A DNA stretch of 64,000 nucleotides, from the NCBI GenBank assembly GCA_040902485.1, contig JBBDXF010000038.1:229134-293133 (forward strand). The letters are read 5' to 3'. This document shows positions 963 through 58,231 of the stretch, in pieces. Both the position numbers and the translations under genes were made by a program. A model generated the notes under the pieces. That model did not search any database. It had not been told where the DNA came from and was given only the letters and a program-made list of their open reading frames with translations. The stretch's first letter is position 1, and each line of letters opens with the position of its first letter. Origin of the DNA: Myxococcota bacterium (GTDB taxonomy: Bacteria; Myxococcota_A; UBA9160; SZUA-336).

Positions 963-3900
963 ATGCGCATTCCGCTACCCGTGGCGCGAGCCGAAGCTCT
1001 CGCAGTTGCGATCACTGCGATCAGCTGCCTGCAGGCATGGCCCGCCGTCGCGCAAGACGAGCCGCTGGCCGAGGCACCCTCCGAGGCGCAGGCGCTCGCC
1101 GAGACGCCGCGCGTGGCCGTCGCCCCGGCCACCTTCCCCGCCGAGCTCGGCTTCGCGCGCGAGCCGCTCGCGGAGCACGTGCGCATCCTGCTGCGCGAGG
1201 CCGCGGTCGAGGTGGCGCCCGCGGCGCAGCTGCGCACGCGGATCGCGGCGGCCGGCCCGAGCGACGTCGCCACGAGCTGCGCGCTGGTCGCGCTCGCAGC
1301 CGCCGACGGCGCGAGTCCGGTCGTGCTCGCGGACCTGCGCGCGACCGAGCGCGGCATCGACGTCGCGCTGCGCGTCTACGAGCCGACCGCCTGCACGCTC
1401 GAGAGCGCCGCGCGCGCGTCGGGCGGCGCGAAGACGCTCGGAGCCGCGCTCGACGCTTCGCTCGCGCGCGTGCTGCCCGCGCTGGGCGGCTCGGCGGATC
1501 TGCTGCCCGCCGCGAGCCTCGGCCTCTCGCAGCTCGCGGCCGAGAGCCGTGCGCTCGCGCTGCTCGAAGAAGCCGAGCTCGCGCGCGCCTGGCGCGCGCT
1601 CGAGGGCGACACCTCGCTGCTCGCGACCGCGCTGCGCAGCCGGATCGGGGCCATTGCCGCGTCGCGCGAGGCGCCACTGGCCGAGCGCGTGCGCTTGAAC
1701 ACCGCGCGCGGCGAGACGGCGCCGAACGACGTCCTCGCGCGGCAGATCCTGATCCAGGCCGCGCGCGCGCTGGACGGCGAGCCGGCCGACGCGCGGGTGC
1801 TGCTCGCGGCGGGCGAGCTCCAGCTCGGGCGCGGCGAAGCGGGCGAGGCGCGCCGCTATCTCGAGAAGGCCGCGGCGCTCGCGCCCGGCAACCCCGACGT
1901 CCACCAGAACCTGGGCCGTGCGTTCGCGCAGCTGGGCGACGACGTGGGCGCGCGCGCGAGCTTCGAGCGCGCCGCGCAGCTCGAGCCCGACTCCAGCCGC
2001 GCGCTCGAGGAGCTCGCGCAGCTCGAAGCGCACGAGCCGGCGCGCCAGGCTGCCGTGCTGCTGCGCGCCGGCGAACGCGCCGTCGGCGCCTACGACGAGC
2101 GCGCCGCGGAGCGCGCGTTCGCGAAGGTGCTGCTGCTCGATCCGCACAGCGTCCCCGCGGTGAAGGACCGCGCGGCGGTCCTGTACGCGCGCTTCGGCGA
2201 CGCCGAGCGCGCGCGCGCCACCTGGCAGGAGGCGATCGACGCCGGCGGCAGCTCGCCGGCGCGCGTGCTCGGCGCCGCGCAGGCGAGCCACGCGCTCGGC
2301 GATCGGGGCGCGGCCGAGACGGGCTTCCGCACGGCGCTCGAGCTCGACCCGACGAGCGTCGGCGCCGCGCTCGCCTTGGGTACGCTCTACACCGAGATGG
2401 GTCGCTTCGACGAGGCCCGCCCCTGGCTGGAGAAGGCCGTCGCGCTCGCGCCGCGCGATCCCGAGCCCAAGCGCGGGCTGGCCGTCGTGCTGCACCAGGC
2501 GGGCCAGTCGGACGCGGCACTCGAGCTGCTGCGCGCGGCCGAGCGCGCGAACGGCCCGACCACGAGCGTGCTGCGCATGCGCGCGACCATCCTGCGCGCG
2601 GGCGGCGACCCGGCCGGCGCGCTCGCGGTTCTCGAGCGCGCGATCGAGCTCGACCCGGTCGACGCCGGCCTGCGCGCCGAGCTCGCCGAAGCGCACGAGC
2701 TGCTCGGCGATCCGAGCGCGGCGGAGCGCGCGCGCGGCCATGCCACGCTGCTGACGCCGGCCCGTCCGCCGCCCCCGGAGGACGCCGCGACCGCGACCGC
2801 CGAGTCGTCGGGGGCGAGCGCGAGCGAGCTCGGCGACGTCGACGAGCGGCTGGCCGAGCTGATCCAGAGCTTCGTCGCGGTCGAGGCCGACACCGGCCGC
2901 GTCGCGCTGATCGGCGTGCGCGAGCGCAACGACTTCCTGGAGAATCCGCTGGCGTGCCTGAAGGCGCCGCTTCAGTGCCTGAAGCCGCGCGTTCCGAACC
3001 GCGACGCGCTCGATCGCGCGCTCGGTCGGGCGATCGGCGGCCAGTACGCGCTGATCCCGCGCGGCGAGATCGAAGAGGGCATGAAGAACAGCGCGAACCG
3101 CTCGCTGATCGCGGGGCTGCTCGCCTTCGAGCGCCAGGACTCGCTCGACGCGAACGCGCTGAGCGACATGAACCTGGCGCTGGGCAGCGACGCGCTGTTC
3201 CTGGCGCGCATCGAGCGCACGCCCGGCGGCGCCACCGCAGAGTCCGCTTCACGCTGCGGCGGCGAAACGCCCTGGCGGCTCGAGCTGCGCCAGCTCGCGG
3301 GCCGCTCGCCGGTGACGACGAAGATCCTGGGCAACGCGCTCTGCATCGACGCGCGCGGCGAATACTCGCGCTGGAATCGCCTGCTGCTCGGGCTGCTGGG
3401 CGCGGCCGGGCTCGCGCTCGCGTTTCAGCTGGTGCGCGGCTGGGGCAGCGTCTCGGTCACGGTCAACCTGCCGCCGCAGACGCGCGCGCTGTTCAGCATC
3501 AGCCTCTCGCGCCGGCCGCGGAAGGCGCGGGGCGCGAAGAGCCAGAAGAACAAGGAGCGCGCGAAGTCGCTGATCGAGGACGGCTTGCGCCGCTTGAACC
3601 GCTACGAGCGCGCGCTGCGCCAGGGCAGCCCCGTCGACTTCACGTGGATTCCCGCGCGCCGGCGTTCGTACTACGTGACGGTGCGCGGGCCGCTGATCAA
3701 CTCGGCGACCGGCGAGCTGATCGGCGATTTCCTCGAGGAGCAGCTCGTGCGCGTGCGGCGCGGCAAGGCCGAGGGCGTGAAGTTCGACCTGCGCCCGAAG
3801 GAGACGGTGCTCGAGATCACCGTCAGCGGCGCCGACAAGGCGGTCGGCGCGGTCGCGCTGGCGCTGCGCGGCGTGCCCTCGTCGCTGCGCTACGCCAACG

Positions 3901-5657
3901 ACGGCGGCGTATTCCTGTACCTGCAGCCGGGCAAGCACACGCTGCTGGTGGGCGCGGGCGATCGCCTGCTGGAGAAGCTGTTCGAGATCCGCTCCTACGA
4001 CACGATGCGGATGCAGATCGAGATTCCGCGCGTGCAGGAGTGGCTGTTCACGGGTTGCCCCGCGGCGGTCACCGCCTACCTCGAGGGCGACGTGCCGCGC
4101 GCCGCGGACGAGCTCGAGCGCGCGGGCGAGACCAAGGCGGCGAACAAGCTGCGCGCGAGGCTCGTGCGCGCGCAGGGCAAGACGGAGGTCGCGCAGAGCG
4201 CACCCGCCACGCCGAGCGATCCGCGCGCGGCCGCCGAGCTCGCGGAGTCCGCGCGCGATCCGCACAGCGCCGCGGCGCTGTTCGAAGCCGCCGGTGAATT
4301 CGCCGACGCCGCGGACGCGCATCGCGCCGCGGGCGATCTTGCCGCCGCAGCGCGCGCCTACGAGCGCGCGGGCGACCTCGCGAGCGCGATCGAGTGCGCG
4401 CAGCGGATGCCGGACGAGGAGTACCTGCTCGCGCTGTACGAGAAGCACGGCGACTCGTTCGAGGCCGGCGAGCTGGCCAAGCGGGCGCGCCAGACGCTGC
4501 GCGCGATCCACGCCTTCTCGCAGGTCGACCGGATCGACTCGAACTACCGCAAGGCGTGTCAGCGGCTGGTCGAGCTCCACAGCGAGCGCAACCAGTTCGC
4601 GCCCGCGCTCGAGAAGCTCGAGGAGCTGGTCGAGCTCGAGGGCGGCGAGCAGGCGCCGCTGCAGCTGCGCTCGCTGCTCGCGCGTCTGCTCGAGACGCTC
4701 GGCCGCGGCGTGGACGCGCTCACCGTCTGGGAGTCGATCGAGTCGCGCGACGCGGCCTTCCAGGACGCCTCCGCGCGCGTCGCGGGGCTGCGCGCCAAGC
4801 ACCGTCCACAGCCCGCGCCCGCCGCGAGCGCGCCGGCGAGTGCGCCCGCTGCCGGAGAGAGCCGCTACGAGATCCTCGAGGAGCTCGGCCGCGGCGCGAT
4901 GGGCGTGGTGTACAAGGCGCGCGATACGCGGCTCGGCCGCGTGGTCGCGCTGAAGCGCCTGACCGACAACCTGCGCGGCCACCCGACCGCGATCGCCTTC
5001 TTCGAGCGCGAGGCGCGCTCCGCGGCGGCGCTCTCGCACCCGAACATCGTGGTGGTCTACGACGCGGGCCAGGAGAACGGCCACTACTTCATCACCATGG
5101 AGCACCTGCAGGGCACGACGCTCGAGCAGATCCTGAAGCAGCGCGGGGCGATGAGCGCGCAGATCGTCGCTTCACTCGGCGTGCAGGTCTGCGCGGGCCT
5201 GCACTACGCGCACACCAACAAGATCATCCACCGCGACATCAAGACCGCGAACCTGTTCTTCACCCGCGAGCGGATCGTGAAGATCATGGACTTCGGTCTG
5301 GCCAAGATGGTCGAAGAAGTACGCAAGGGCGCGACCATGATCAGCGGCACACCCTACTACATGGCTCCGGAGCAGGCCCTGGGCGAGAACGTCGACCACC
5401 GCGCGGATCTGTACGCGCTCGGCGTCACCTTCTGGAACCTGCTGACCAACGCGTTCCCGTTCGAGACCGGGGACGTGACCTTCCATCACCGCAATACGCC
5501 CGCGCCCGACGTGCGCACGCGCGCGCCCGGCGCGCCCGCCGAGCTGGCTCTGCTCGTCGCGAAGCTGCTGGCCAAGCGGCCCGACGCGCGCTTCCAGAAC
5601 GCGGCGGAAGTCGCGCAGCTGCTGCAGCAGATCGCCGCCGCCGCGCCCGCCCCCTGA
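963..5657 (+). CDS. receptor-type Ser/Thr protein kinase with N-terminal signal peptide and TPR repeats, one TM helix, and a C-terminal Hanks-type kinase domain
   Basis: Signal peptide MRIPLPVARAEALAVAITAISCLQAWPAVAQ. Multiple TPR-like repeats around aa 260–560. Hydrophobic segment LLLGLLGAAGLALAFQLV near aa 815. Kinase motifs YEILEELGRGAMGVVYKA...ALKRL, HRDIKTANLFF, DFGLAK and APE lie in the last ~300 aa. Confidence 0.9.
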   Translation: MRIPLPVARAEALAVAITAISCLQAWPAVAQDEPLAEAPSEAQALAETPRVAVAPATFPAELGFAREPLAEHVRILLREAAVEVAPAAQLRTRIAAAGPSDVATSCALVALAAADGASPVVLADLRATERGIDVALRVYEPTACTLESAARASGGAKTLGAALDASLARVLPALGGSADLLPAASLGLSQLAAESRALALLEEAELARAWRALEGDTSLLATALRSRIGAIAASREAPLAERVRLNTARGETAPNDVLARQILIQAARALDGEPADARVLLAAGELQLGRGEAGEARRYLEKAAALAPGNPDVHQNLGRAFAQLGDDVGARASFERAAQLEPDSSRALEELAQLEAHEPARQAAVLLRAGERAVGAYDERAAERAFAKVLLLDPHSVPAVKDRAAVLYARFGDAERARATWQEAIDAGGSSPARVLGAAQASHALGDRGAAETGFRTALELDPTSVGAALALGTLYTEMGRFDEARPWLEKAVALAPRDPEPKRGLAVVLHQAGQSDAALELLRAAERANGPTTSVLRMRATILRAGGDPAGALAVLERAIELDPVDAGLRAELAEAHELLGDPSAAERARGHATLLTPARPPPPEDAATATAESSGASASELGDVDERLAELIQSFVAVEADTGRVALIGVRERNDFLENPLACLKAPLQCLKPRVPNRDALDRALGRAIGGQYALIPRGEIEEGMKNSANRSLIAGLLAFERQDSLDANALSDMNLALGSDALFLARIERTPGGATAESASRCGGETPWRLELRQLAGRSPVTTKILGNALCIDARGEYSRWNRLLLGLLGAAGLALAFQLVRGWGSVSVTVNLPPQTRALFSISLSRRPRKARGAKSQKNKERAKSLIEDGLRRLNRYERALRQGSPVDFTWIPARRRSYYVTVRGPLINSATGELIGDFLEEQLVRVRRGKAEGVKFDLRPKETVLEITVSGADKAVGAVALALRGVPSSLRYANDGGVFLYLQPGKHTLLVGAGDRLLEKLFEIRSYDTMRMQIEIPRVQEWLFTGCPAAVTAYLEGDVPRAADELERAGETKAANKLRARLVRAQGKTEVAQSAPATPSDPRAAAELAESARDPHSAAALFEAAGEFADAADAHRAAGDLAAAARAYERAGDLASAIECAQRMPDEEYLLALYEKHGDSFEAGELAKRARQTLRAIHAFSQVDRIDSNYRKACQRLVELHSERNQFAPALEKLEELVELEGGEQAPLQLRSLLARLLETLGRGVDALTVWESIESRDAAFQDASARVAGLRAKHRPQPAPAASAPASAPAAGESRYEILEELGRGAMGVVYKARDTRLGRVVALKRLTDNLRGHPTAIAFFEREARSAAALSHPNIVVVYDAGQENGHYFITMEHLQGTTLEQILKQRGAMSAQIVASLGVQVCAGLHYAHTNKIIHRDIKTANLFFTRERIVKIMDFGLAKMVEEVRKGATMISGTPYYMAPEQALGENVDHRADLYALGVTFWNLLTNAFPFETGDVTFHHRNTPAPDVRTRAPGAPAELALLVAKLLAKRPDARFQNAAEVAQLLQQIAAAAPAP

Positions 5658-13607: not shown

Positions 13608-13684
13608 TGGCGCGCCCGGCTGGACTCGAACCAGCGACCTGCGGATTAGAAGTCCGCTGCTCTATCCAGCTGAGCTACGGGCGC
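13608..13684 (-). tRNA. tRNA-Arg (anticodon TCT)
   Basis: The reverse complement folds as a cloverleaf: GCGCCCG/TA/GCTC-AGCTGGATA-GAGC/A/GCGGA-CTTCTAA-TCCGC/AGGTC/GCTGG-TTCGAGT-CCAGC/CGGGCGC-G-CCA. The anticodon loop CTTCTAA gives anticodon TCT. CCA is encoded. Confidence 0.9.
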
Positions 13685-15019: not shown

Positions 15020-16669
15020 CTACAGACCCCAGCCGCTGCGGTGGACGATCGGGATGCGCCGGCCGCTGCCGTACGCCTTCTGCGAGACCTTGAGCACGAC
15101 CGGCGCCTGCCGGCGCTTGTACTCGTTGCGGTCGATCTGGCGCAGGATCCAGGCCACGGTCTCGCGCGTCGCGCCGCGCGGCGCCTCGATCTCGTCGCCG
15201 GGCAGCCCCAGCTCGATCGCCTGGTGCAGCACCTCGTCGAGCACCGGGTACGGCGGCAGCGCATCCTCGTCGCGCTGATCGGGCGCGAGCTCGGCGGACG
15301 GCGGCTTCTCGATCGAGCCGATCGGAATGCGCGGGCCGTCGCGGTTCGAGTGGCGCGCGAGCGCATACACGTCGCGCTTCAGCACGTCGCCGATCACCGC
15401 CAGGCCGCCGACCAGGTCGCCGTACAGGGTGGTGTAGCCGACCGACAGCTCGCTCTTGTTGCCGGTCGCGAGGACGATCCGGTTCTCGAAGTTCGACACC
15501 GCCATCAAGAGCGCCCCGCGAATGCGCGCCTGGATGTTCTCCTGCGTGAGCCCGTAGCTCTCGCGCGCTCCGAACAGGCTCCGGAACTGCTCGAGGTAGT
15601 CCTTGTACAGCGTGTCGATGCGCACGGTGCGCGTCTCGACGCCGAGCGCGCGCGCGAGCGCTTCCGCGTCCGTGATGCTGTGCTCGGACGAGAACGGACC
15701 GGGCATCAGCACGCCGAGCACGTTCTCGGCGCCGAGCGCGCGCGCGGCGAGATGCGCGGTGACGGCGGAGTCGATCCCGCCCGAGAGGCCGATCACGGCC
15801 TGCTCCATACCGAGCTTGCCCAGGTAGTCGCGAATGCCGAGCACCAGCGCGCGCTCGAGCAGCTCGACGTCGGGCTCGAGCGCGGGCGCCTCGGCCTGGC
15901 CTGTCGCGAACGGATCGACCACCGCGAAGTCCTCGGCGAAGCGCGCGAGCCGCGTGGTGACGCGCGCGTCCGCGTCGACGCAGAAGCTCGTGCCGTCGAA
16001 GATCAGCTCGTCGTTGCCGCCCACCAGGTTCACGAACACGAACGGCACGCGGTGGCGGCGCGCGGCGTCGCGCACCATCGCCTCGCGCAGGCTCATCTTG
16101 CCCTGGTTCCAGGGCGAGGCGGAGATCGCGAGGATCACCTCGGCGCCCCTCCCGACCAGCTCCTCGATCGGATCGATCGGGTACGGCCGGCGCGGGCCCC
16201 AGAACCTCCCGCTCCACAGGTCCTCGCAGATCGCGATGCCGATCGCGCGCTCGCGGAAGCGGAACACGCGCCGCTCGCTCGCGGGCTGGAAGTAGCGCGA
16301 CTCGTCGAAGATGTCGTAGGTGGGAAGGAGGGTCTTCGCCTGCACGTGCACGATCTCGCCGCGGTCGAGCAGCACGGCGGAGTTCGAGATGCGCTTGGGA
16401 CCCCCGTCGGGCGCGGGCAGGATCGCGCCGGTCAGGATCGCGATGTCGCGCGACTCGGGCACGAGCTCCTCGAGCGCGCGCGTGTGGTCGCGCAGGAAGC
16501 TCGGGCGCTCCAGCAGGTCGCCGGGCGGATAGCCGGAGATGCCGAGCTCGGGGAGGATCAACAAGTCGGCGCGCTGGGTGCGTGCGCGGACGAGGGCTGC
16601 GCGGATCTTGCGGAGGTTTCCGGTGAAGTCGCCGATCGTGAGGTTCAGCTGCGCTAGCGCGATTCGCAT
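15020..16669 (-). CDS. nadE: glutamine-dependent NAD+ synthetase (nitrilase domain plus NAD synthetase domain)
   Basis: MRIALAQLNLTIGDFTGNLRKI... N-terminal CN-hydrolase domain. C-terminal LSGGIDSAV PP-loop ATPase motif. Full length ~550 aa. Confidence 0.9.
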   Translation of the reverse strand: MRIALAQLNLTIGDFTGNLRKIRAALVRARTQRADLLILPELGISGYPPGDLLERPSFLRDHTRALEELVPESRDIAILTGAILPAPDGGPKRISNSAVLLDRGEIVHVQAKTLLPTYDIFDESRYFQPASERRVFRFRERAIGIAICEDLWSGRFWGPRRPYPIDPIEELVGRGAEVILAISASPWNQGKMSLREAMVRDAARRHRVPFVFVNLVGGNDELIFDGTSFCVDADARVTTRLARFAEDFAVVDPFATGQAEAPALEPDVELLERALVLGIRDYLGKLGMEQAVIGLSGGIDSAVTAHLAARALGAENVLGVLMPGPFSSEHSITDAEALARALGVETRTVRIDTLYKDYLEQFRSLFGARESYGLTQENIQARIRGALLMAVSNFENRIVLATGNKSELSVGYTTLYGDLVGGLAVIGDVLKRDVYALARHSNRDGPRIPIGSIEKPPSAELAPDQRDEDALPPYPVLDEVLHQAIELGLPGDEIEAPRGATRETVAWILRQIDRNEYKRRQAPVVLKVSQKAYGSGRRIPIVHRSGWGL

Positions 16670-16877
16670 CGGTTTCCGCAGGGTAGCGGAGCGGCGATCC
16701 CGGAGCGCGGATCCAAGACAGGCGATGGACCCCGCGCTCCTCTGCGCGAGGTGGTGGCGGAGGGTCTTGCAAGCGAGCGCTTCGCGCTCGCGCGCAGCGA
16801 GGCGGAGCCGAGCGGAGTGCGGGTGGCGCGCGGCCGTCCGCGCGCCGGGTCCCGCTAAGACTCCCGCCCGGGTCCCG

Positions 16878-17312
16878 TCAGTAAGAGCCGCCGATGTACT
16901 TGCGTAGGGACTCGACGTCTTCGGAGCGCTCTTCGAGCTCGCCGAAGATGAGGTCGCGGATGGAGAGCATGTCGACCACGGCGCCGTGCAGGACGACGGG
17001 CAGGTGGCGGCAGCCGACGGCGTCCATCTTGCGCACGGCGAGCGCACGCTCGTCGCTGGGCGCGGCGGTGAGCGGGTTCGGCGTCATGACTTCGCCGATC
17101 TCGGTTTTCTCGGGCGCGCGGTTCACCCAGACGACGCGGCGTACGACGTCGCGCTCGCTGAAGATGCCGACCAGACGTCCGTCCTGGACGACCGGCACGG
17201 CGCCGATCTTGCGCGAGGACATGATCGCGACCGCCTCGGCGACGGTCTGGTGCGGGCTCACGATGTGCACCACCGGTGAGCGCTTCTGTAGGAGCTGAGC
17301 GATCAGGCCCAT
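16878..17312 (-). CDS. CBS-domain pair protein
   Basis: MGLIAQLLQKRSPVVHIVSPHQTVAEAVAIMSSRKIGAVPVVQDGRLVGIFSERDVVRRV... contains two CBS motifs. GAGGAGG RBS upstream. Confidence 0.8.
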   Translation of the reverse strand: MGLIAQLLQKRSPVVHIVSPHQTVAEAVAIMSSRKIGAVPVVQDGRLVGIFSERDVVRRVVWVNRAPEKTEIGEVMTPNPLTAAPSDERALAVRKMDAVGCRHLPVVLHGAVVDMLSIRDLIFGELEERSEDVESLRKYIGGSY

Positions 17313-17365
17313 GGGCAGCCTCCTCTTCGAGCTCGCCCCTAGTCTCCCCCGAGTCGCGCGAAACT

Positions 17366-18487
17366 TCAACGAATTCTTGAGAGGGCGGTGGCCAGCTCCG
17401 CGACCTCGACGGGCTCCAGCAGCTCGTGGAGCGGCTCGAGCGTGCCCGGGTCGAGCGCGAGCGAATCGACCGGCGCGGCCAGCGCGATCGACTCGATCTG
17501 CCGGTCCGAGAGCTCGACCAGCGCGGGCCGGAGCTGCGTGTCGAGGTCGAGCCGCGCGTCGCCGTTCGCGGCCCGGACCTGGATGCGCTTCCCGAGCTCG
17601 ATCTGCAGCGCGAACAGGTCGCGCAGCGCCGCCGGGTCGAGCCCGAGATCGATCGCGCGCTGGCGCACGGCCTCGAGCACGCGCGCCTCCTGGACGGTGT
17701 CCTCGATCGGCCGCTGGTGCGCGCGCTTCCAGGCTCCGATCGCGGGCGCCAGCGCGAGCCGCCGCGCGATCAGGTCGACCAGCCGATCCGCCTCGTCCTG
17801 GCGCTGCGGGCTGCCGAACCACTTCTCGCGCAGCTTCGCGAGCTCGGGCTCGCGCTGGCGGACCAGCGGATCGAGCACCGGACCGAGCTCGGCGGCGTGC
17901 GCGGGCGCCACCCACCAGACCTTGCGATCGCGCGCCGGCTCGCAGTGGATCGGGTCGCCGACCCGCGCGAAGCCTCCGAGCTCGAAGCTGTCGGTCACGA
18001 TCGCCTCGACCTCGCCGCTCGCGAGCCGCGCGGGCAGCGTGCGGTTCGCGTCGACCGCCTCGATGCGCGCGCCCGGAAAGTGCGCGCGCGCGAAGCGCTC
18101 GAGCACGCCGCCGTGGTTCACCGCGACACTCTTCGGTGACAGCGGCCCGATCCAGCACGGCCCGCCGATCGCGACCGCCAGGCTCATGCGCCCGACCACC
18201 GCGCGCTCCGGTCGCCAGGTGACGCCGCTCATGGCCACGTCGAAGTCGCCGTGCGCGACGCGCCGCTCGAGCTCCGGCCAGCGGAACGGCACGAACACCA
18301 GCTCGCGATCGAGCGCGTCGGCGAGCAAGCGCGCCGCGTCGACGTCGAAGCCCTGGCCTTCGTTCGAGAACGGCGCGTAGTCGCCGCTCGTGCCCACGCG
18401 CAGGACGGCGCGCGGCCCGTCGGCGCGCGCCAGACCGGAAGCGCAGATCAGCAGACCGGCGCCGAGCGCCCCGCAGAGACGAACCAT
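17366..18487 (-). CDS. periplasmic fusion protein: solute-binding-protein family 3 (cyclohexadienyl-dehydratase PheC-like) domain plus C-terminal AroQ chorismate mutase domain
   Basis: Signal peptide MVRLCGALGAGLLICASGLARA. LRVGTSGDYAPFS is the SBP_bac_3 signature. C-terminal ...DRLVDLIARRLALAPAIGAWKRAHQRPIEDTVQEARVLEAVRQRAIDLGLDPAALRDLFALQIELGKRIQ matches AroQ class II chorismate mutase. Confidence 0.75.
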   Translation of the reverse strand: MVRLCGALGAGLLICASGLARADGPRAVLRVGTSGDYAPFSNEGQGFDVDAARLLADALDRELVFVPFRWPELERRVAHGDFDVAMSGVTWRPERAVVGRMSLAVAIGGPCWIGPLSPKSVAVNHGGVLERFARAHFPGARIEAVDANRTLPARLASGEVEAIVTDSFELGGFARVGDPIHCEPARDRKVWWVAPAHAAELGPVLDPLVRQREPELAKLREKWFGSPQRQDEADRLVDLIARRLALAPAIGAWKRAHQRPIEDTVQEARVLEAVRQRAIDLGLDPAALRDLFALQIELGKRIQVRAANGDARLDLDTQLRPALVELSDRQIESIALAAPVDSLALDPGTLEPLHELLEPVEVAELATALSRIR

Positions 18488-19039
18488 CTACAGCTCCGAG
18501 GCGTCCAGCTCGAACCAGTACAGGGCCGCGATCACGAGCGCCGAGCTGATCCGGCCCTCGCGCGCGTGCGCGCGCAGCTCGGCGCGCGGCACGAGCTGCA
18601 CCACCGTCTCTTCGGTGTGGCCGTTCCGGATCTCGGCGACCTTCCGCACGCCGCGCGCCACGTAGGTCTCGGTGCGGTTCCCGAACAGGGCGGGGTTCGG
18701 GTTCACGGCTCCGAGCCGCACCACGCCTTCGGCGTGGTAGCCGGTCTCCTCGAGCAGCTCGCGGGCGGCGGCCTGGGCCGCGCTCTCGCCGGGGTCGACG
18801 ATCCCGCCCGGGATCTCGAGCGTCACGCCGCGCTCGCCGTGCCGGTACTGGCGCACCATCACCAGCTCCTCGCGCTCGGTGAGCGCCAGGATGTTCACCC
18901 AATCGGCGGCGTCGATCCGGTAGAATGGATGCGGCTCACCGGTGGTCGGCGAACGCGCGAGCGTGCGGCTCACCGTGAAGACCCGGCAGTCCTGCAGGAG
19001 CCGGCTCTCGAGCTCCGTCCAGGGCATCGGTTTTGACAT
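18488..19039 (-). CDS. NUDIX hydrolase (ADP-ribose pyrophosphatase-like)
   Basis: Nudix box GGIVDPGESAAQAAARELLEETG. Two alternative ATG starts (MSKPMPW or MPW). The stop abuts the start of the downstream fusion gene. Confidence 0.85.
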   Translation of the reverse strand: MSKPMPWTELESRLLQDCRVFTVSRTLARSPTTGEPHPFYRIDAADWVNILALTEREELVMVRQYRHGERGVTLEIPGGIVDPGESAAQAAARELLEETGYHAEGVVRLGAVNPNPALFGNRTETYVARGVRKVAEIRNGHTEETVVQLVPRAELRAHAREGRISSALVIAALYWFELDASEL

Positions 19040-19067
19040 TCCTGATCTTATCGCGAGGAGGCTGGCC

Positions 19068-20075
19068 ATGGACAGGCGCGGGCTGGGTCGAACGGGTGTA
19101 CGCGTGCCGAGCCTGTGCCTGGGCACGATGACCTTCGGATTGCAGTCGGACGAGGCCACCTCGTTCGCGATCCTCGATCGCGCCTTCGAGGCCGGCATCG
19201 ACTTCTTCGACACGGCCGACGTGTACCCGCTCGGCGCGGGCGCGGAGCAGGCCGGAGCGACCGAGCAGATCATCGGCCGCTGGCTCGAAGACAGGGGCAC
19301 GCGCTCGCGCGTGTTCCTGGCCAGCAAGTGCCGCGGCAAGATGGGCGCCGGCACGAACGACGTGGGGCTCTCGCGCTTCCACATCCAGCGCGCGGTGGAG
19401 GCGAGCCTGCGGCGGCTGCGCACGGACGTGATCGACCTGTACCAGACGCACTTCCCCGATCCGCACGTGCCGATCGACGAGACGCTGCGCGCGCTCGACG
19501 ACCTCGTGCGCAAAGGCTTGGTCCGCTACGTCGGCTGCTCGAACTACCCGCTGTTCCGACTCGCCGAGGCGAGCCAGACCGCGAACGCGCTCGCACTCAC
19601 GCGCTACGAGACGCTGCAGCCGCGCTTCAACCTGCTCTACCGCGAGATCGAGACGGAGCTCCTGCCCTACGCGCGCCAGGAGCAGCTCGGCGTGATCGTC
19701 TACAACCCGATCGCCGGCGGCCTGCTCTCGGGCAAGTACAAGTCGGGCGACGCGCCGCGCGCGGGCACGCGCTTCACGATCCAGCGCGCTGGCGAGCTGT
19801 ACCGCCAGCGCTACTGGGACGAGGCGCAGCTCGCCGCGGTCTCCGATCTCGCGAAGGAGGTCGAGGCGCGCGGCCTGGCGCTGGCTTCGGTCGCGGTCGC
19901 GTGGGTGCTCGCGCAGCCGGGCATCACGTCCGCGATCATCGGCGCGAGCCGGCCCGAGCAGCTCGACGCGACGCTCGCCGGCGCCGAGCTCACGCTCGAT
20001 GCCGAGCTGACCCGTCTGTGTGACGAGGTCTGGTGGCGGCTGCCGCGCCGGCCCGTGATCGAGGGCTATCGCTAG
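19068..20075 (+). CDS. aldo/keto reductase
   Basis: MDRRGLGRTGVRVPSLCLGTMTFG...IDFFDTADVYP...GCSNYP is the AKR family signature. GAGGAGG RBS upstream. Divergent from the NUDIX gene with only a ~30-bp intergenic region. Confidence 0.9.
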   Translation: MDRRGLGRTGVRVPSLCLGTMTFGLQSDEATSFAILDRAFEAGIDFFDTADVYPLGAGAEQAGATEQIIGRWLEDRGTRSRVFLASKCRGKMGAGTNDVGLSRFHIQRAVEASLRRLRTDVIDLYQTHFPDPHVPIDETLRALDDLVRKGLVRYVGCSNYPLFRLAEASQTANALALTRYETLQPRFNLLYREIETELLPYARQEQLGVIVYNPIAGGLLSGKYKSGDAPRAGTRFTIQRAGELYRQRYWDEAQLAAVSDLAKEVEARGLALASVAVAWVLAQPGITSAIIGASRPEQLDATLAGAELTLDAELTRLCDEVWWRLPRRPVIEGYR

Positions 20076-20163
20076 CCCGATCGCACCTGCCCAGTTTCTG
20101 TGCAGTCCCGCACCGGGAATGCGCACGCGTACGCGTGGCGCGCGCGTTCACGCCTGCTCTCCA

Positions 20164-20180
20164 TGGCACGGCGGTTGCTC
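20164..20180 (+). promoter_or_regulatory. putative sigma-54 (-24/-12) promoter upstream of amtB
   Basis: TGGCAC-ggcgg-TTGCT matches the sigma-54 consensus TGGCAC-N5-TTGC(A/T). It lies ~45 bp upstream of the amtB start. A CGCACCgggaaTGCGCA element ~30 bp further upstream resembles an NtrC half-site pair. Confidence 0.55.
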
Positions 20181-20223
20181 TAGGCCCGCTTGGCTTCGAC
20201 CACCCAAGGAGAGGGAGTATCCC

Positions 20224-21636
20224 ATGCGTAGTTCGATCGAGCCTTCAACCCTCGGTCGCTGGGCAGCGCGCTCAGCCGCCTTTCTCGTTCCCCTGATCGC
20301 GAGCGTCACCGCCTTCGCACAAGAAGCGGCAGAGGCCGCTCCGCCGACGGCCGACAGCGGTGACACCGCCTGGGTGCTCACGGCGACGGCGCTGGTGCTG
20401 ATGATGACCCTGCCGGGTCTGGCGCTGTTCTACGGCGGGCTCGTTCGCTCGAAGAACGTGCTGAACGTGTTCATGCAGTGCTTCATCGCGGCCGGTGCGG
20501 TCGGCGTGCTCTGGGTGCTGGTCGGCTACAGCATCGCGTTCTCGGGCAGCGAGGACGCGGCTTTCTTCGGGAACCTCGCGAAGGCGGGCTTGGCGGGAGT
20601 GACGATCGACTCTCTGACAGGAACGATCCCCGAGTACATCTTCGTCATGTTCCAGGGGATGTTCGCGGTCATCACGCCCGCGCTGATCCTTGGCGCGGTG
20701 GTCGAGCGCATGAAGTTCTCGAGCTTCCTGCTGTTCATCTCCGTGTGGCTTCTGGTCGTGTACTGCCCGCTCGCCTACATGGTCTGGGGCGGCGGCTGGA
20801 TCTTCGACTCGGGGGCGATCGACTTCGCCGGTGGCTTGGTCGTGCACATGTCCAGCGGATTCTCCGCGCTGGCCGCGGCGATCGTGCTCGGCAAGCGCAA
20901 GGGCTACGGCAAGGAGCCCATGCCACCCCACAGCTTGCCGCTGTGTCTGATCGGCGCCGGCCTGCTCTGGACGGGCTGGTTCGGCTTCAACGCGGGCAGC
21001 GCGCTGGGCGCGTCTCCGCTGGCAGCGCTCGCGTTCCTCAACACCAGCACGGCCGCCTCCACCGCGGTGCTCTCCTGGGCGATCATCGAGTGGATCCACC
21101 GGGGCAAGCCAACGGCACTCGGCGCCGCAACCGCGGCCGTCGCCGGCCTGGTGGCGATCACACCCGCGTGCGGCGCGGTGAGCCCGATGGGCGCGATCAT
21201 GGTCGGTCTTGGCGTCGCAATCGTGTGCTACGTGGCGCTGACGTTCCTCAAGCCGCTCGCGGGCTACGACGACTCGCTCGATGCGTTCGGCGTACACGGT
21301 CTCGGCGGGGCTTGGGGCGCTCTGGCCTCCGGCATCTTCGCGGTGACCCTCGGGTCCGGCATCGAGAGCAACGGCCAGCAGATCATGGTACAGATCAAGG
21401 GCATCCTGTTCACCGCGATCTACGCGCCCGCTGCGACCTTCGTGATCCTCTACGCGATCAAGATGGTGATGGGTCTGCGCGTGACCGACGAGGACGAGTA
21501 CGAGGGCCTCGACGTCTCGCAGCACAGCGAGAGCGCGTACTCGATGAGCACGGGCTCGAGCATGGGCGGCGTTTCCGGCTCGCACGCGATGAGCGCGGAA
21601 GGCTATGCAACCTCGACTCAAGCGCGACACGCCTGA
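20224..21636 (+). CDS. amtB: ammonium transporter (Amt family)
   Basis: Signal/TM-rich protein. ...DTAWVLTATALVLMMTLPGLALFYGGLVRSKNVLN... is the Amt signature. AAGGAGAGGGAG RBS. Confidence 0.9.
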   Translation: MRSSIEPSTLGRWAARSAAFLVPLIASVTAFAQEAAEAAPPTADSGDTAWVLTATALVLMMTLPGLALFYGGLVRSKNVLNVFMQCFIAAGAVGVLWVLVGYSIAFSGSEDAAFFGNLAKAGLAGVTIDSLTGTIPEYIFVMFQGMFAVITPALILGAVVERMKFSSFLLFISVWLLVVYCPLAYMVWGGGWIFDSGAIDFAGGLVVHMSSGFSALAAAIVLGKRKGYGKEPMPPHSLPLCLIGAGLLWTGWFGFNAGSALGASPLAALAFLNTSTAASTAVLSWAIIEWIHRGKPTALGAATAAVAGLVAITPACGAVSPMGAIMVGLGVAIVCYVALTFLKPLAGYDDSLDAFGVHGLGGAWGALASGIFAVTLGSGIESNGQQIMVQIKGILFTAIYAPAATFVILYAIKMVMGLRVTDEDEYEGLDVSQHSESAYSMSTGSSMGGVSGSHAMSAEGYATSTQARHA

Positions 21637-23234
<1,598 letters not shown>

Positions 23235-39347: not shown

Positions 39348-39421
39348 TCGGGGCGGCCGGATTCGAACCGGCGACCTTCTGCTCCCAAAGCAGACGCGCT
39401 ACCGAGCTGCGCTACGCCCCG
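39348..39421 (-). tRNA. tRNA-Pro (anticodon TGG)
   Basis: The reverse complement folds as CGGGGCG/TA/GCGC-AGCTCGGTA-GCGC/G/TCTGC-TTTGGGA-GCAGA/AGGTC/GCCGG-TTCGAAT-CCGGC/CGCCCCG-A. Anticodon TGG. CCA is not encoded. Confidence 0.9.
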
Positions 39422-58100: not shown

Positions 58101-58231
58101 GCCGCTTCGCGCAGCAGCTCCGCCTCCCGCTCCAGGTTTTCCGCGGGATCCGGCAGGTTCTGCGCATGGCCGGGCCGCGCCGCCGCGAGCAGCAGCATGA
58201 GCGAGCCGGCGACCAGCAGGAGGCGACGCAT
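55118..58231 (-). CDS. secreted ankyrin-repeat protein (~30 ANK repeats, 1037 aa)
   Basis: Signal peptide MRRLLLVAGSLMLLLAAARPGHA. Continuous 33-aa ANK repeats (DGWTALMHAASTGQTETVKLLLERGA...). Same strand as, and 52 bp downstream of, the PqiC-like gene. Confidence 0.85.
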   Translation of the reverse strand: MRRLLLVAGSLMLLLAAARPGHAQNLPDPAENLEREAELLREAARVGDRLAVGALLSREVPVDSADRDGWTALMHAASTGQTETVKLLLERGASPTSRSEQGDTALQLAASHDDSTLAQALLDAGAPIDAADASGETALMKAAVRGSAAVVYVLVGRKASLDLTDRGGSTALMLAAIEGHVDVVRELAKAGADTEMRRRDGATALVVAAKQRRRKVVTELIEAKAEVNAAASDGATALFYAVRNGDRDQVDELVVAGADPDQPSANGDTPLHLAASRGDPEIALRLVDAGGDIKRRNALGLTPLVIALEARHDAVARVFSGVGSGDPTIGSAMLTMRGEDGRTALMFGASMGLANFVRSLIEAGAELDEQDAEGTTALILAVRGNRNDVITQLVEAGANLELADRTGANALAHAAARGQLKALKQLTTAGANLDFELGKQRLTPLMAGATTGNLEVVKFLLSAGADAKKTDASGSTARELAARAGFSRVAALLQQAESDPAFARTSASRGEHTILMDAAWRGNDATVVAELKGGASVDARNADGRTALMFAASAGRLNSAKLLVEAGAELEIKDDGGATALRAAVANGHLELVELLAGAGANVDAASRNGQTPLMYAVGKGHAPMVDLLLARGADPALRDPSGRSALLQAAASSQTEIARKLIAKGADPSTASLAGETALQQAARRGDYALVTLLLEVGAQPNTADRDGWTALMRAAAAGQSEIASRLLSSGADPNAANSAGQTALHLAARSGSVRVVELLVEAKVDPLARDLKGRTALMEAYDRGMARVFATIDRASAAAWAKLAEGDGDSLPGGASRAAMRDERELIEAARSGNLDEVKQVLGRGVPASARDFRGWNALLYAALAGKTEIVVELLRAGADGNEANDLGGTPLMAAASNDHADVVAVLLAMKVDPDMRDRDGMTALTFSAAAGNLPSTALLVEKGGADIEARDERSLTPLMVAAMGGYTEVVEYLLLRGANPAVTGRGGVTARSLAEERKYAPVVRLLDEHAKRAAAVERPPAAGEAKGPSDSGKP

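What the first reader, a model, noticed from the sequence alone, without database searches (positions are those of the whole stretch)
16878..19039. Periplasmic PheC-like binding-protein–chorismate mutase fusion inside a NUDIX / fusion / CBS / nadE gene run
**Seen in the sequence**
- The gene at 17366–18487 encodes a signal peptide, an SBP_bac_3 domain (LRVGTSGDYAPFS) and a C-terminal AroQ-class chorismate mutase domain.
- Its start abuts the NUDIX gene stop. It is followed by a CBS-pair protein and then nadE.

**Established knowledge**
- Periplasmic cyclohexadienyl dehydratase (PheC, SBP_bac_3 fold) and periplasmic chorismate mutase (*AroQ) exist as separate proteins in, for example, Pseudomonas aeruginosa.

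**Inference**
- Here the two appear fused (dehydratase-like N-terminus, mutase C-terminus), giving an exported two-step chorismate-to-phenylpyruvate module.
- The N-domain could instead be a plain amino-acid-binding protein.
Basis: partly seen in the sequence, partly recalled or inferred. Interest (0 to 1): 0.5.

Follow-up and report, generated by a model that had tools for sequence, protein, structure and literature searches.

The report
Exported dehydratase-like/chorismate mutase fusion, variant clade
The gene really encodes an exported protein joining a PheC-like (cyclohexadienyl-dehydratase-like) domain to a chorismate mutase; such fusions were described in 2023 as extremely rare, but this one belongs to a large, unstudied clade from uncultured soil and water bacteria in which three dehydratase pocket residues are always replaced.

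Summary
Window 17366-18487 (-) encodes a 373-aa protein with a Sec-type signal peptide, an SBP_bac_3 domain and a C-terminal AroQ chorismate mutase (CM) domain. Its ATG directly follows the NUDIX stop codon, and a CBS-pair gene and then nadE lie downstream.

The architecture is not new. Stocker et al. 2023 (PMC10520331) solved and assayed exported CDT-CM fusions (cyclohexadienyl dehydratase, CDT, plus CM), and these are the best sequence and fold matches.

The CM site looks intact: R243, K254, D263, E267 and R320 are invariant in 118 homologs. The N-domain descends from catalytic CDTs, not from transporter binding proteins. It keeps the general acid (E169) and 12 of 15 pocket positions I tracked. 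However, K100, T132 and N133 are P110, V128 and L129 throughout its clade.

The clade sits inside a much larger His132/Leu133 family, found only in metagenomes and metagenome-assembled genomes (MAGs): 133 of the best 150 cluster representatives and at least 543 species genomes. The published count is nine species.

The NUDIX/CBS/nadE run is lineage synteny, not a functional unit.

Best reading: an exported chorismate-to-prephenate enzyme whose partner domain probably still processes prephenate. That second step is unproven. I rate it a new variant of a known kind, of moderate interest.

The parts
17366..18487 (-). Gene for the 373-aa exported CDT-like/AroQ chorismate mutase fusion protein (stop codon 17366-17368)
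   Evidence: ORF. Pfam SBP_bac_3 + CM_2. Best PDB matches 8CQ6/8CQ4. AF2 pLDDT 93.5. An identical protein, P0001, is annotated in an NCBI Myxococcota MAG.
18422..18487 (-). Signal peptide, residues 1-22 (MVR / LCGALGAGLLICASGL / ARA, predicted cleavage before D23)
   Evidence: Sequence pattern. Modelled as a lone low-confidence helix, residues 2-19, pLDDT about 68. Full-length homologs listed carry either an AxA-type signal or a lipobox-like motif (44/118); a few entries are N-terminally truncated.
17810..18412 (-). CDT-like (SBP_bac_3 fold) domain, residues 26-226
   Evidence: Kept, with PaCDT numbering in brackets: S34 (T19), G35 (G20), D36 (D21), Y37 (Y22), W70 (W60), T90 (S80), R95 (R85), N124 (N128), G127 (G131), N148 (N152), T165 (T169), D166 (D170), E169 (E173), K189 (K198). 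The invariant Cys pair is C111/C182.
17981..17983 (-). Codon of Glu169, the counterpart of the CDT general acid Glu173 (JbCDTCM Glu200)
   Evidence: Invariant in 118/118 homologs and in 92/92 H-type representatives. E173Q in PaCDT and E200Q in JbCDTCM abolish activity (10.1101/157495; PMC10520331).
18158..18160 (-). Codon of Pro110, which replaces the CDT active-site Lys100. It is followed by Cys111 and a 14-residue deletion relative to JbCDTCM.
   Evidence: P in 118/118 homologs. The H-type relatives have Ala at this position.
18101..18106 (-). Codons of Val128-Leu129, which replace the CDT active-site Thr132-Asn133 (motif NHGGVLE instead of NPGGTNE)
   Evidence: Position 132 is V/I/A/F and position 133 is L in 118/118 homologs. 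The H-type relatives have H/Y at 132 and L/M at 133.
17453..17794 (-). AroQ (gamma-like) chorismate mutase domain, residues 232-345. It is followed by a helical C-terminal tail, residues 346-373 (17369-17452).
   Evidence: Pfam CM_2. NCBIfam gamma-subclass models score best but below their cutoffs. R243, K254, D263, E267 and R320 are invariant in 118 homologs.
17726..17728 (-). Codon of Lys254, the counterpart of the catalytic Lys60 of MtCM, Lys39 of EcCM and Lys287 of JbCDTCM
   Evidence: Invariant in 118/118 homologs. K287A abolishes CM activity in JbCDTCM (PMC10520331).
18488..19039 (-). Context: NUDIX hydrolase gene (alternative start 19027). Its stop codon abuts the fusion ATG.
   Evidence: Pfam NUDIX 3e-16. 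The best NCBIfam model is NudE-like, below its cutoff. Sequence read.
16878..17312 (-). Context: stand-alone CBS-pair protein gene
   Evidence: Pfam CBS x2, 1.8e-21. GGAGG Shine-Dalgarno sequence and a 53-nt gap.
15020..16669 (-). Context: glutamine-dependent NAD+ synthase (nadE)
   Evidence: Pfam CN_hydrolase + NAD_synthase. NF010588 scores 601 bits against a cutoff of 479.

Best explanation
The gene encodes a Sec-exported, two-domain protein of the CDT-CM type. An N-terminal domain descends from catalytic cyclohexadienyl dehydratases (the PheC lineage of solute-binding-protein fold). It is fused to a C-terminal AroQ-gamma-like chorismate mutase.

**Proposed mechanism**
- After cleavage at ARA|DG the protein sits in the periplasm. 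Many homologs are lipid-anchored instead.
- The CM domain binds chorismate through R243, R320, K254 and a relocated Arg269, and rearranges it to prephenate.
- The CDT-like domain binds the pyruvyl carboxylate of prephenate through T90, R95, K189 and the backbone at the helix start (residues 127-129).
- It stacks the ring between Y37 and W70.
- It uses E169, held by D36 and N148, to protonate the leaving hydroxyl, giving phenylpyruvate + CO2 + H2O.
- The polar residues that flank the leaving groups in PheC (K100, T132, N133) are replaced by P110, V128 and L129. This step therefore probably runs with altered kinetics or specificity.

**Shown:** the architecture, homology, residue states, their conservation, and the distribution of the clade.

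**Inferred:** export, both activities, and the physiological role. The likeliest role is scavenging or sensing chorismate/prephenate released outside cells, as proposed for the published fusions.

The protein belongs to a monophyletic 'V/I132' clade found in Myxococcota and Acidobacteriota. That clade is nested in a much larger 'H132-L133' family of the same architecture, known only from metagenomes and MAGs.
For: **Architecture and homology**
- Pfam SBP_bac_3 + CM_2.
- PDB phmmer best hits are 8CQ6 (5e-25, query 18-368 against chain 20-391), 8CQ4 and 8CQ3.
- Foldseek best hits are 8CQ6, 8PNH and 8CQ4 at E about 3e-22 over roughly 385 columns.

**The N-domain derives from catalytic CDTs**
- Alone, it matches AncCDT-3 at 3.7e-21 and PaCDT at 1.8e-19. 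It matches AncCDT-1 at 4e-15, the best transporter SBP at 9e-8 and Pu1068 at 5e-7.
- It carries the derived states G20, E173, N128, G131 and K198 (plus S for T19) that Clifton et al. tie to the emergence of activity.

**Purifying selection on both domains**
- The CDT-like domain has 63% mean pairwise identity and 18% invariant columns. The CM core has 56% and 7%.
- E169 and K254, the two residues whose mutation kills each activity in JbCDTCM, are invariant.

**CM active site**
- R49, K60, D69, E73 and R134 equivalents are invariant.
- The R72 equivalent is Gln in 60/118 homologs, and all 60 have Arg three residues later. This perfect covariation keeps a guanidinium in the site.
- V76, K106 and Q109 are the same fusion-specific substitutions reported by Stocker et al..

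**Export**
- Signal peptides or lipoboxes occur in the full-length homologs.
- There is an invariant Cys pair.

**Experimental precedent**
- Six of the seven tested published fusions showed both CM and CDT activity.
Against: - Three of the nine PaCDT active-site residues that are fully conserved in every published active fusion (K100, T132, N133) are replaced by non-polar residues.
- Clifton et al. assign K100 and N133 to the hydrogen-bond network that positions Glu173 and stabilises the leaving groups.
- A 14-residue segment of the small domain is deleted.
- Position 177 is aromatic (F173 here). In AncCDT-3 an aromatic residue there holds Glu173 in a non-productive rotamer.
- Pocket identity is a poor predictor of rate. 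AncCDT-3 and PaCDT share 14 of 15 inner-shell residues, yet the paper puts the difference in their catalytic efficiency at about 10^5. AncCDT-2 and Pu1068 have Glu173 but no activity.
- All NCBIfam CM models score below their curated cutoffs.
- There is no enzymatic data for any member of this clade.
- The predicted inter-domain arrangement differs from the crystal structures (TM 0.47, rmsd 23 A).
- No signal-peptide predictor was available.
Confidence: 0.55

Rival explanations
1. Active exported chorismate mutase whose CDT-like domain has become, or reverted to, a non-catalytic ligand-binding module. It would hold prephenate, phenylpyruvate or a related aromatic acid, for example as a sensor or as a chaperone for the CM domain.
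For: - The polar residues K100, T132 and N133 are lost.
- Members of the CDT lineage can keep Glu173 and still be pure binders: Pu1068 and AncCDT-2.
- Stocker et al. found that the CDT domain is stabilised by the fused CM domain, and they proposed a sensing role.
- F173 lies at the position where an aromatic residue misplaces Glu173 in AncCDT-3.
Against: - G131 and K198, which arose at the step where catalysis appeared, are invariant, as are E169, D36 and N148.
- No transporter, chemoreceptor or sensor-kinase partner gene appeared in the neighbourhoods for which gene calls were available or among the window genes I annotated.
- The domain is more conserved than the CM domain, but that fits a binder as well as an enzyme.
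Confidence: 0.25
2. Both domains are catalytic, but the remodelled pocket gives the N-domain a different substrate or reaction from PheC. Examples are arogenate-only specificity after loss of the Lys100 shield of Asp170, a non-aromatising decarboxylation, or action on another cyclohexadienyl acid.
For: - The change at positions 100, 132 and 133 is coordinated and clade-wide: P/V/L here and A/H/L in the larger sister diversity. It clusters in one sub-pocket.
- The V-type clade is monophyletic in 57 of 60 bootstrap replicates. That pattern looks like a specificity switch rather than decay.
- Clifton et al. link K100 to acceptance of keto acids as opposed to amino acids.
Against: - The fused CM makes prephenate, the canonical CDT substrate.
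- No aminotransferase or other enzyme that would supply an alternative periplasmic substrate is evident.
- There is no structural or biochemical data for any member of the clade.
Confidence: 0.12
3. The N-domain is an ordinary amino-acid-binding protein of an ABC importer that happens to be fused to a mutase.
For: - Pfam sees only SBP_bac_3, and NCBI names the protein 'transporter substrate-binding domain-containing protein'.
- The alpha-carboxylate and alpha-amino binding residues (T90, R95, D166) are present.
Against: - Matches to CDTs are at least 11 orders of magnitude better than to any transporter SBP.
- CDT-specific derived states are present at positions 20, 128, 131, 173 and 198, with Ser for Thr at 19.
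- No ABC permease or ATPase genes lie next to it in the window or in the related loci for which gene calls were available.
Confidence: 0.03

Closest known systems
Exported CDT-CM fusion enzymes of beta-Proteobacteria: JbCDTCM (PDB 8CQ4/8PNH), DsCDTCM (8CQ6) and MpCDTCM; Stocker et al., J Biol Chem 2023, PMC10520331
   Same: - Same domain order, with a signal peptide, a CDT-fold domain and then an AroQ-gamma-type CM.
- Best sequence and fold matches over nearly the full length.
- General acid Glu and catalytic Lys conserved.
- The same CM substitutions relative to MtCM (Q76V, E106K, E109Q, small residue at 105).
   Different: - Only 27-29% identity.
- K100, T132 and N133 are P, V and L.
- 14-residue deletion in the small domain, and the Cys pair is in a different register.
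- The linker WLxxxW motif is WFGSPQ here.
- R72 is relocated to position 75.
- The hosts are uncultured Myxococcota and Acidobacteriota rather than beta-Proteobacteria.
- The predicted domain packing differs.
- The clade is abundant rather than 'nine species'.
Exported CM-CDT fusions of gamma-Proteobacteria: AfCMCDT (8CQ3/8PNJ), SbCMCDT and others; same paper
   Same: The same two domain types, also exported. The match is E 1e-22 in two stretches. Two such clusters (P0186, P0267) appear among the 150 best representatives.
   Different: Opposite domain order, and a canonical NPGGTNE pocket.
Monofunctional periplasmic cyclohexadienyl dehydratase PheC/PaCDT (PDB 3KBR, 5HPQ) and the reconstructed AncCDT-3/-5; Clifton et al. 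(10.1101/157495), Kaczmarski et al. (PMC7683729)
   Same: Same fold. It shares 12 of the 15 pocket positions I tracked, including E173, D21, Y22, W60, R85, N128, G131, N152, T169, D170 and K198. E-values are 1e-19 to 1e-21.
   Different: No K100, T132 or N133. A shortened small domain. Fused to a CM.
Secreted AroQ-gamma chorismate mutase *MtCM (Rv1885c; PDB 2FP2) and relatives (6CNZ)
   Same: Helical AroQ fold, exported. R49, K60, D69 and R134 equivalents are present.
   Different: Q76V, E106K and E109Q. R72 is replaced by Q with Arg at +3. No MtCM-type C-terminal disulfide. NCBIfam scores are below the cutoffs.
Pu1068 (SAR11_1068; PDB 5KKW), the non-catalytic binding protein of the CDT lineage
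   Same: Shows that a CDT-lineage protein with Glu173 can be a pure binder, which makes it the model for the main rival.
   Different: A far weaker match (5e-7). It is encoded next to ABC importer genes and is not fused to a CM.

Membership tests
Exported bifunctional CDT-CM fusion enzymes (Stocker et al. 2023) | N-terminal secretion signal | tested here: met
   The n/h/c regions and the ARA|D site were read from the sequence. Full-length homologs listed carry AxA or lipobox signals. No dedicated predictor or experiment was available.
Exported bifunctional CDT-CM fusion enzymes (Stocker et al. 2023) | CDT-fold domain followed by an AroQ-gamma CM domain in one polypeptide | tested here: met
   Pfam. 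Near full-length alignment to 8CQ6. Foldseek.
Exported bifunctional CDT-CM fusion enzymes (Stocker et al. 2023) | [quoted passage not shown] | tested here: not met
   Six of nine are conserved. K100 is P110, T132 is V128 and N133 is L129. This holds across 118 homologs.
Exported bifunctional CDT-CM fusion enzymes (Stocker et al. 2023) | WLxxxW inter-domain linker motif of the CDT-CM class | tested here: not met
   The linker is W-F-G-S-P-Q. The first Trp is kept and the second is not.
Exported bifunctional CDT-CM fusion enzymes (Stocker et al. 2023) | Measured CM and CDT activities | not testable with these tools
   This needs enzyme assays or complementation.
Cyclohexadienyl dehydratase (PheC/CDT) lineage of SBP_bac_3 | General acid Glu173 with its Asp21/Asn152 network | tested here: met
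   E169, D36 and N148 are invariant.
Cyclohexadienyl dehydratase (PheC/CDT) lineage of SBP_bac_3 | Derived states that accompanied the gain of catalysis (T19, G20, N128, G131, K198) | tested here: met
   S34 (conservative for T19), G35, N124, G127 and K189.
Cyclohexadienyl dehydratase (PheC/CDT) lineage of SBP_bac_3 | Lys100/Asn133 hydrogen-bond network and Thr132 around the leaving groups | tested here: not met
   These positions are P110, L129 and V128.
Cyclohexadienyl dehydratase (PheC/CDT) lineage of SBP_bac_3 | Closer to CDTs than to transporter binding proteins | tested here: met
   E-values rank AncCDT-3, PaCDT and AncCDT-5 first, then AncCDT-1, and far ahead of transporter SBPs and Pu1068. 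A tree with transporter outgroups was not built.
AroQ chorismate mutase, gamma (exported) subclass | Catalytic Arg49, Lys60, Asp69, Arg72 and Arg134 (MtCM numbering) | tested here: met
   R243, K254, D263 and R320 are invariant. R72 is Q266 with a compensating R269: 60 of 60 Gln-72 sequences have Arg-75. The R72 position itself is not met in this subclade.
AroQ chorismate mutase, gamma (exported) subclass | Score above the curated family cutoff (TIGR01806 / PRK09269) | tested here: not met
   49.6 bits against 74.15, and 56.5 bits against 158. Pfam CM_2 is above its cutoff.
Amino-acid ABC-transporter substrate-binding protein | Encoded with ABC permease/ATPase genes, and most similar to characterised binding proteins | tested here: not met
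   No adjacent transporter genes. Matches to transporter SBPs are no better than 9e-8.

The most novel reading that the evidence does not exclude
The V/I132-L133 clade, and the larger H132-L133 family around it, may be a distinct and environmentally abundant class of exported two-domain enzymes. Their remodelled leaving-group pocket would give chemistry or specificity different from PheC. Uncultured Myxococcota, Acidobacteriota and other soil and water bacteria would use them to capture or sense chorismate and prephenate leaking from lysed cells. That would turn the 'why export a chorismate mutase?' puzzle from a nine-species curiosity into a widespread trait.
Probability: 0.2. Interest if true: 0.7.

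Novelty: new variant of a known kind. Interest (0 to 1): 0.5.

Why it matters
Exported chorismate mutases and PheC have no agreed biological role. The 2023 paper called the fused form 'extremely rare' because it considered only hits with species-level taxonomy.

This locus shows that the same architecture is common in uncultured Myxococcota, Acidobacteriota and other phyla. At least 133 clusters at 50% identity and at least 543 species-level genomes carry it.

In these lineages three supposedly essential dehydratase residues are systematically replaced, while the general acid and the substrate anchors stay invariant. This offers two things:
- A natural experiment on which CDT pocket residues are really needed, which bears on the Jackson-lab work on how an enzyme evolved from a binding protein.
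- Many new candidates for testing the chorismate-sensing or scavenging hypothesis, including in lineages related to predatory bacteria.

For genome annotation, 'transporter substrate-binding domain-containing protein' is a misleading name for these genes.

Tried and rejected
- **Operon reading of NUDIX-fusion-CBS-nadE.** Rejected as a functional unit.
  - The run is kept only in the 16 or so closest Myxococcota loci.
  - In sister genomes it is split by inserted genes: a TPP enzyme plus a CLC channel, or RecQ.
  - It is absent from the Acidobacteriota relatives.
- **Regulatory elements.** The promoter/terminator scan and Rfam found nothing in 16500-19300.
- **Gene calling on the 87 fetched loci.** My first two GC-frame gene callers picked antisense ORFs. 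All-vs-all ORF clustering was noisy in this 70% GC DNA. I fell back on tblastn with defined queries.
- **Neighbour clues.**
  - The TPP enzyme in the sister Myxococcota loci is indolepyruvate/phenylpyruvate-decarboxylase-like, but scores below its cutoff and is absent from the window.
  - The Acidobacteriota TPP enzyme is a PRK07586 type and is not a close homolog of the Myxococcota one.
  - I treat both as lineage synteny.
- **Cultured or characterised members.**
  - The listing of cluster members, a second homolog search seeded with an H-type protein and three literature searches found none.
  - No paper beyond Stocker et al. turned up.
  - The afdb50 fold library was not available.
  - One context look-up failed.
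  - Model coordinates are not exposed, so pocket geometry could not be measured.
- **Cytoplasmic P-protein (PheA-like) reading.** Rejected. The protein has a signal peptide, no PDT or ACT domain, and an SBP fold.
- **Other aromatic-pathway genes.** None was found among the window genes I annotated.
Full report
**1. What is there**

On the minus strand of a window with about 70% GC, four genes run head to tail:
- NUDIX hydrolase, 18488-19039. An alternative start at 19027 matches the 179-aa product called on another assembly.
- A 373-aa ORF, 17366-18487.
- A stand-alone CBS-pair protein, 16878-17312.
- Glutamine-dependent NAD+ synthase, 15020-16669.

The NUDIX stop TAG is followed immediately by the ATG of the 373-aa ORF, with GGAG 7-10 nt upstream. 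The CBS gene follows after 53 nt and has a GGAGG Shine-Dalgarno sequence. nadE follows after 208 nt. No Rfam family, sigma-70-like promoter or intrinsic terminator was detected in the region.

The 373-aa protein has Pfam SBP_bac_3 (residues 29-105) and CM_2 (residues 234-303), both above their gathering scores. Its N-terminus is MVR / LCGALGAGLLICASGL / ARA|DG, which has the layout of a Sec/SPase I signal peptide. The coding signature, the many homologs and the AF2 model (mean pLDDT 93.5, pTM 0.88) show that the gene is real.

**2. The architecture is already known**

A sequence search of the PDB gives these best hits:
- 8CQ6, E 5e-25, aligned over residues 18-368.
- 8CQ4, named 'Bifunctional cyclohexadienyl dehydratase/chorismate mutase from Janthinobacterium sp. 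HH01'.
- 8CQ3, which has the opposite domain order.
- PaCDT (PheC) and the reconstructed ancestral CDTs.

Foldseek with the AF2 model gives the same ranking. Both domains match, but TM 0.47 and rmsd 23 A show that the predicted domain packing differs.

These structures come from Stocker et al. 2023 (PMC10520331). That paper reported:
- Exported CM-CDT fusions in gamma-Proteobacteria and CDT-CM fusions in beta-Proteobacteria.
- Both activities in six of the seven enzymes tested.
- Loss of each activity on K287A (CM) and E200Q (CDT) in JbCDTCM.
- No substrate channelling.
- A proposed role in sensing rather than biosynthesis.
- A claim that the fusions are 'extremely rare', found in nine species. 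Only hits with species-level taxonomy were considered.

**3. The mutase domain looks competent**

I aligned 118 homologs (50-100% identity) with the Jb and Ds sequences. In MtCM numbering:
- R49, K60, D69, E73 and R134 are invariant. They correspond to R243, K254, D263, E267 and R320.
- Q76 is V, E106 is K and E109 is Q. Position 105 is A, S or G. These are the same departures from MtCM that Stocker et al. found in all active fusions.
- The R72 position is Gln in 60 of 118 sequences, including the window protein (Q266).
- Every one of those 60 has Arg three residues on, one helical turn (R269). Sequences that keep R72 have varied residues at that position.

This perfect covariation argues that selection keeps a guanidinium in the site, and so that the CM is active.

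**4. The N-domain is a CDT derivative, not a transporter SBP, but its pocket is remodelled**

Searched alone against the PDB, the N-domain matches:

| Target | E-value |
|---|---|
| AncCDT-3(P188L) | 3.7e-21 |
| PaCDT | 1.8e-19 |
| AncCDT-5 | 2.5e-19 |
| AncCDT-1 (amino-acid binder) | 4e-15 |
| Best true transporter SBP | 9e-8 |
| Pu1068 (non-catalytic) | 5e-7 |

It carries the derived character states that Clifton et al. (10.1101/157495) associate with the path from binder to enzyme:
- S34/G35/D36, for T19/G20/D21.
- E169, the general acid E173. The E173Q mutant is dead.
- N124, for N128.
- G127, for G131, which removes a clash with the leaving carboxylate.
- K189, for K198.

It also keeps Y37, W70, T90, R95, N148, T165 and D166. 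All of these are invariant or nearly so in 118 homologs.

Against this, K100, T132 and N133 are P110, V128 and L129. These three belong to the nine residues that Stocker et al. found fully conserved in every fusion.
- Position 100 is P in 118/118 homologs.
- Position 132 is V, I, A or F.
- Position 133 is L in 118/118.

A 14-residue segment after position 100 is deleted. An invariant Cys pair (C111/C182) replaces the canonical one in a different register.

The domain is not decaying. It has 63% mean pairwise identity and 18% invariant columns, against 56% and 7% for the CM core.

**5. Can the second step be predicted?**

Only partly.

For activity:
- In the JbCDTCM-MES complex the carboxylate mimic is held by Ser107, Thr159 (side chain and backbone), Arg112 and Lys225.
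- The window protein keeps three of these side chains and the backbone amide.
- The general-acid network is intact.

Against activity:
- K100 and N133 are assigned to the network that positions Glu173 and stabilises the leaving groups.
- F173 sits where a Tyr misplaces Glu173 in AncCDT-3.

Pocket identity is also a poor predictor of rate. AncCDT-3 and PaCDT share 14 of 15 inner-shell residues, yet the paper puts the difference in their catalytic efficiency at about 10^5.

I therefore put the two-step enzyme reading at about 0.55. A non-catalytic binder gets 0.25, altered chemistry or specificity 0.12, and a plain transporter SBP 0.03.

**6. The clade is large and undescribed**

- An exhaustive phmmer search of 1.84 billion cluster representatives found 113 clusters at E <= 1e-30.
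- Of the best 150 representatives, 133 have the order CDT-like then CM. Two are canonical CM-CDT and the rest are fragments.
- Their pocket motif N-x-G-G-x-x-E reads HL, HM or YL in 97. It reads V/I/A/F/L followed by L or M in 38. It reads the canonical TN in only 2.
- In the H-type sequences K100 is Ala, while E173, N128, G131, N152 and K198 stay conserved.
The best 80 are all MAGs: Myxococcota, Acidobacteriota (Thermoanaerobaculia, Ca. Multivorans, Holophagales, Vicinamibacteraceae), Binatia and others.
- A search seeded with an H-type member found 1055 further 90%-identity clusters. Again all came from metagenomes or MAGs.

In a neighbour-joining analysis of the CDT-like domain with 60 bootstrap replicates:
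- The V/I-type clade, which includes the window protein, is a supported split (57/60).
- The canonical sequences are a supported split (60/60).
- The H-type is never a single split.

The V/I-type is therefore a monophyletic offshoot of H-type diversity. No transporter outgroup was available, so the root is not fixed.

Three literature searches found no description of this clade. Automated names are 'transporter substrate-binding domain-containing protein' (NCBI) or 'cyclohexadienyl dehydratase' / 'chorismate mutase-like protein' (JGI).

**7. The gene run**

- amtB - AKR - NUDIX - fusion - CBS - nadE - DUF8575 is conserved only in the closest Myxococcota genomes (fusion at least 53% identical).
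- In 10 of these loci an indolepyruvate/phenylpyruvate-decarboxylase-like TPP enzyme lies between NUDIX and the fusion, joined in 8 by a CLC channel. In others RecQ lies between the fusion and CBS.
- The Acidobacteriota relatives and a 51%-identical relative (L007) have unrelated neighbours.
- The run is therefore synteny, not a pathway. The stop/start abutment suggests only that the fusion is co-transcribed with NUDIX and possibly translationally coupled to it in this genome.

One oddity remains. nadE also lies 1-3 kb from the fusion in three H-type contigs that share only 37-39% identity with the window protein. This may reflect deep positional orthology.

**8. Verdict**

The kind of protein is known, but this is a distinct and abundant variant clade with a remodelled dehydratase pocket and no experimental data. 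I rate it a new variant of a known kind, with interest 0.5.

Noticed in passing
L002:3002-4639 (+) and L002:4646-5962 (-); also L005, L006, L010-L014 and L073: In sister Myxococcota genomes a TPP-dependent enzyme lies between the NUDIX gene and the fusion gene, and in 8 of these 10 loci a CLC channel gene lies there too (L013 has only the TPP enzyme). The enzyme's best NCBIfam model is indolepyruvate/phenylpyruvate decarboxylase (TIGR03394, 398 bits, below the 554 cutoff). Neither gene is present at this position in the window. A phenylpyruvate-decarboxylase-like neighbour would fit phenylpyruvate as the product, but it could equally be coincidence.
   Followed up: partly
L088:2453-4159, L089:1900-3555 and L090:2643-4271, compared with window 15020-16669: nadE lies 1-3 kb from the fusion gene in three H132-type contigs whose fusion is only 37-39% identical to the window protein. 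The arrangement differs (nadE - CSD - fusion). Other H-type loci and the Acidobacteriota loci lack it. This is either deep positional orthology or an unexplained link.
   Followed up: partly
window 17680-17692 (residues Q266-R269) and the homolog alignment: Within the mutase domain, the conserved active-site Arg (MtCM R72) is Gln in 60 of 118 homologs. All 60 carry Arg three residues later. This is an apparent one-turn relocation of a catalytic arginine.
   Followed up: yes
L007:1-2374: A contig carrying a 51%-identical fusion gene also has a copper membrane monooxygenase cluster (Pfam AmoC, AMO and Monooxygenase_B) about 4 kb upstream. Its phylum is not known. The cluster is unrelated to the finding.
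   Followed up: no
L021-L078 (28 Acidobacteriota loci), about 2-5 kb downstream of the fusion: These loci share a conserved PRK07586-type TPP enzyme on the opposite strand. Most also have a MocR-like/class-I aminotransferase downstream and a PQQ-like beta-propeller upstream. These genes are 80-100% identical among the loci, so this is lineage synteny.
   Followed up: partly
window 55118-58231 (-): A 1037-aa protein with a hydrophobic N-terminus and very many ankyrin repeats (16 matched Pfam Ank_2 stretches). That is unusually long for a bacterial ankyrin protein.
   Followed up: no
window 963-5657 (+): A 1564-aa protein with N-terminal TPR repeats and a C-terminal Ser/Thr protein kinase domain.
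   Followed up: no
window 19028-19067: The aldo/keto reductase gene (+; probable start about 19068) and the NUDIX gene (-) diverge with only about 28-40 nt between their start codons. The same tight divergent arrangement is seen in L002 (27 nt).
   Followed up: no
window 20119-22005 (+): An ammonium transporter gene followed by a PII (GlnB/GlnK-type) gene lies upstream of the run. amtB is part of the conserved synteny block in the Myxococcota relatives, and PII was detected in two of the loci. The PII identification rests on my own reading of the sequence.
   Followed up: no
window 16670-16877: A 208-nt gap lies between the CBS gene and nadE. The gap is only 33 nt in L002. No Rfam hit and no promoter or terminator match was found.
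   Followed up: partly
L076 (CAMBZJ010000020.1): A contig labelled 'MAG: Klebsiella pneumoniae' carries an H-type (HM) fusion homolog at 39% identity. It is probably a mis-binned or mislabelled contig.
   Followed up: no
window 13611-13684 (-) and 39348-39421 (-): Two tRNA genes, the only Rfam hits in the window.
   Followed up: no
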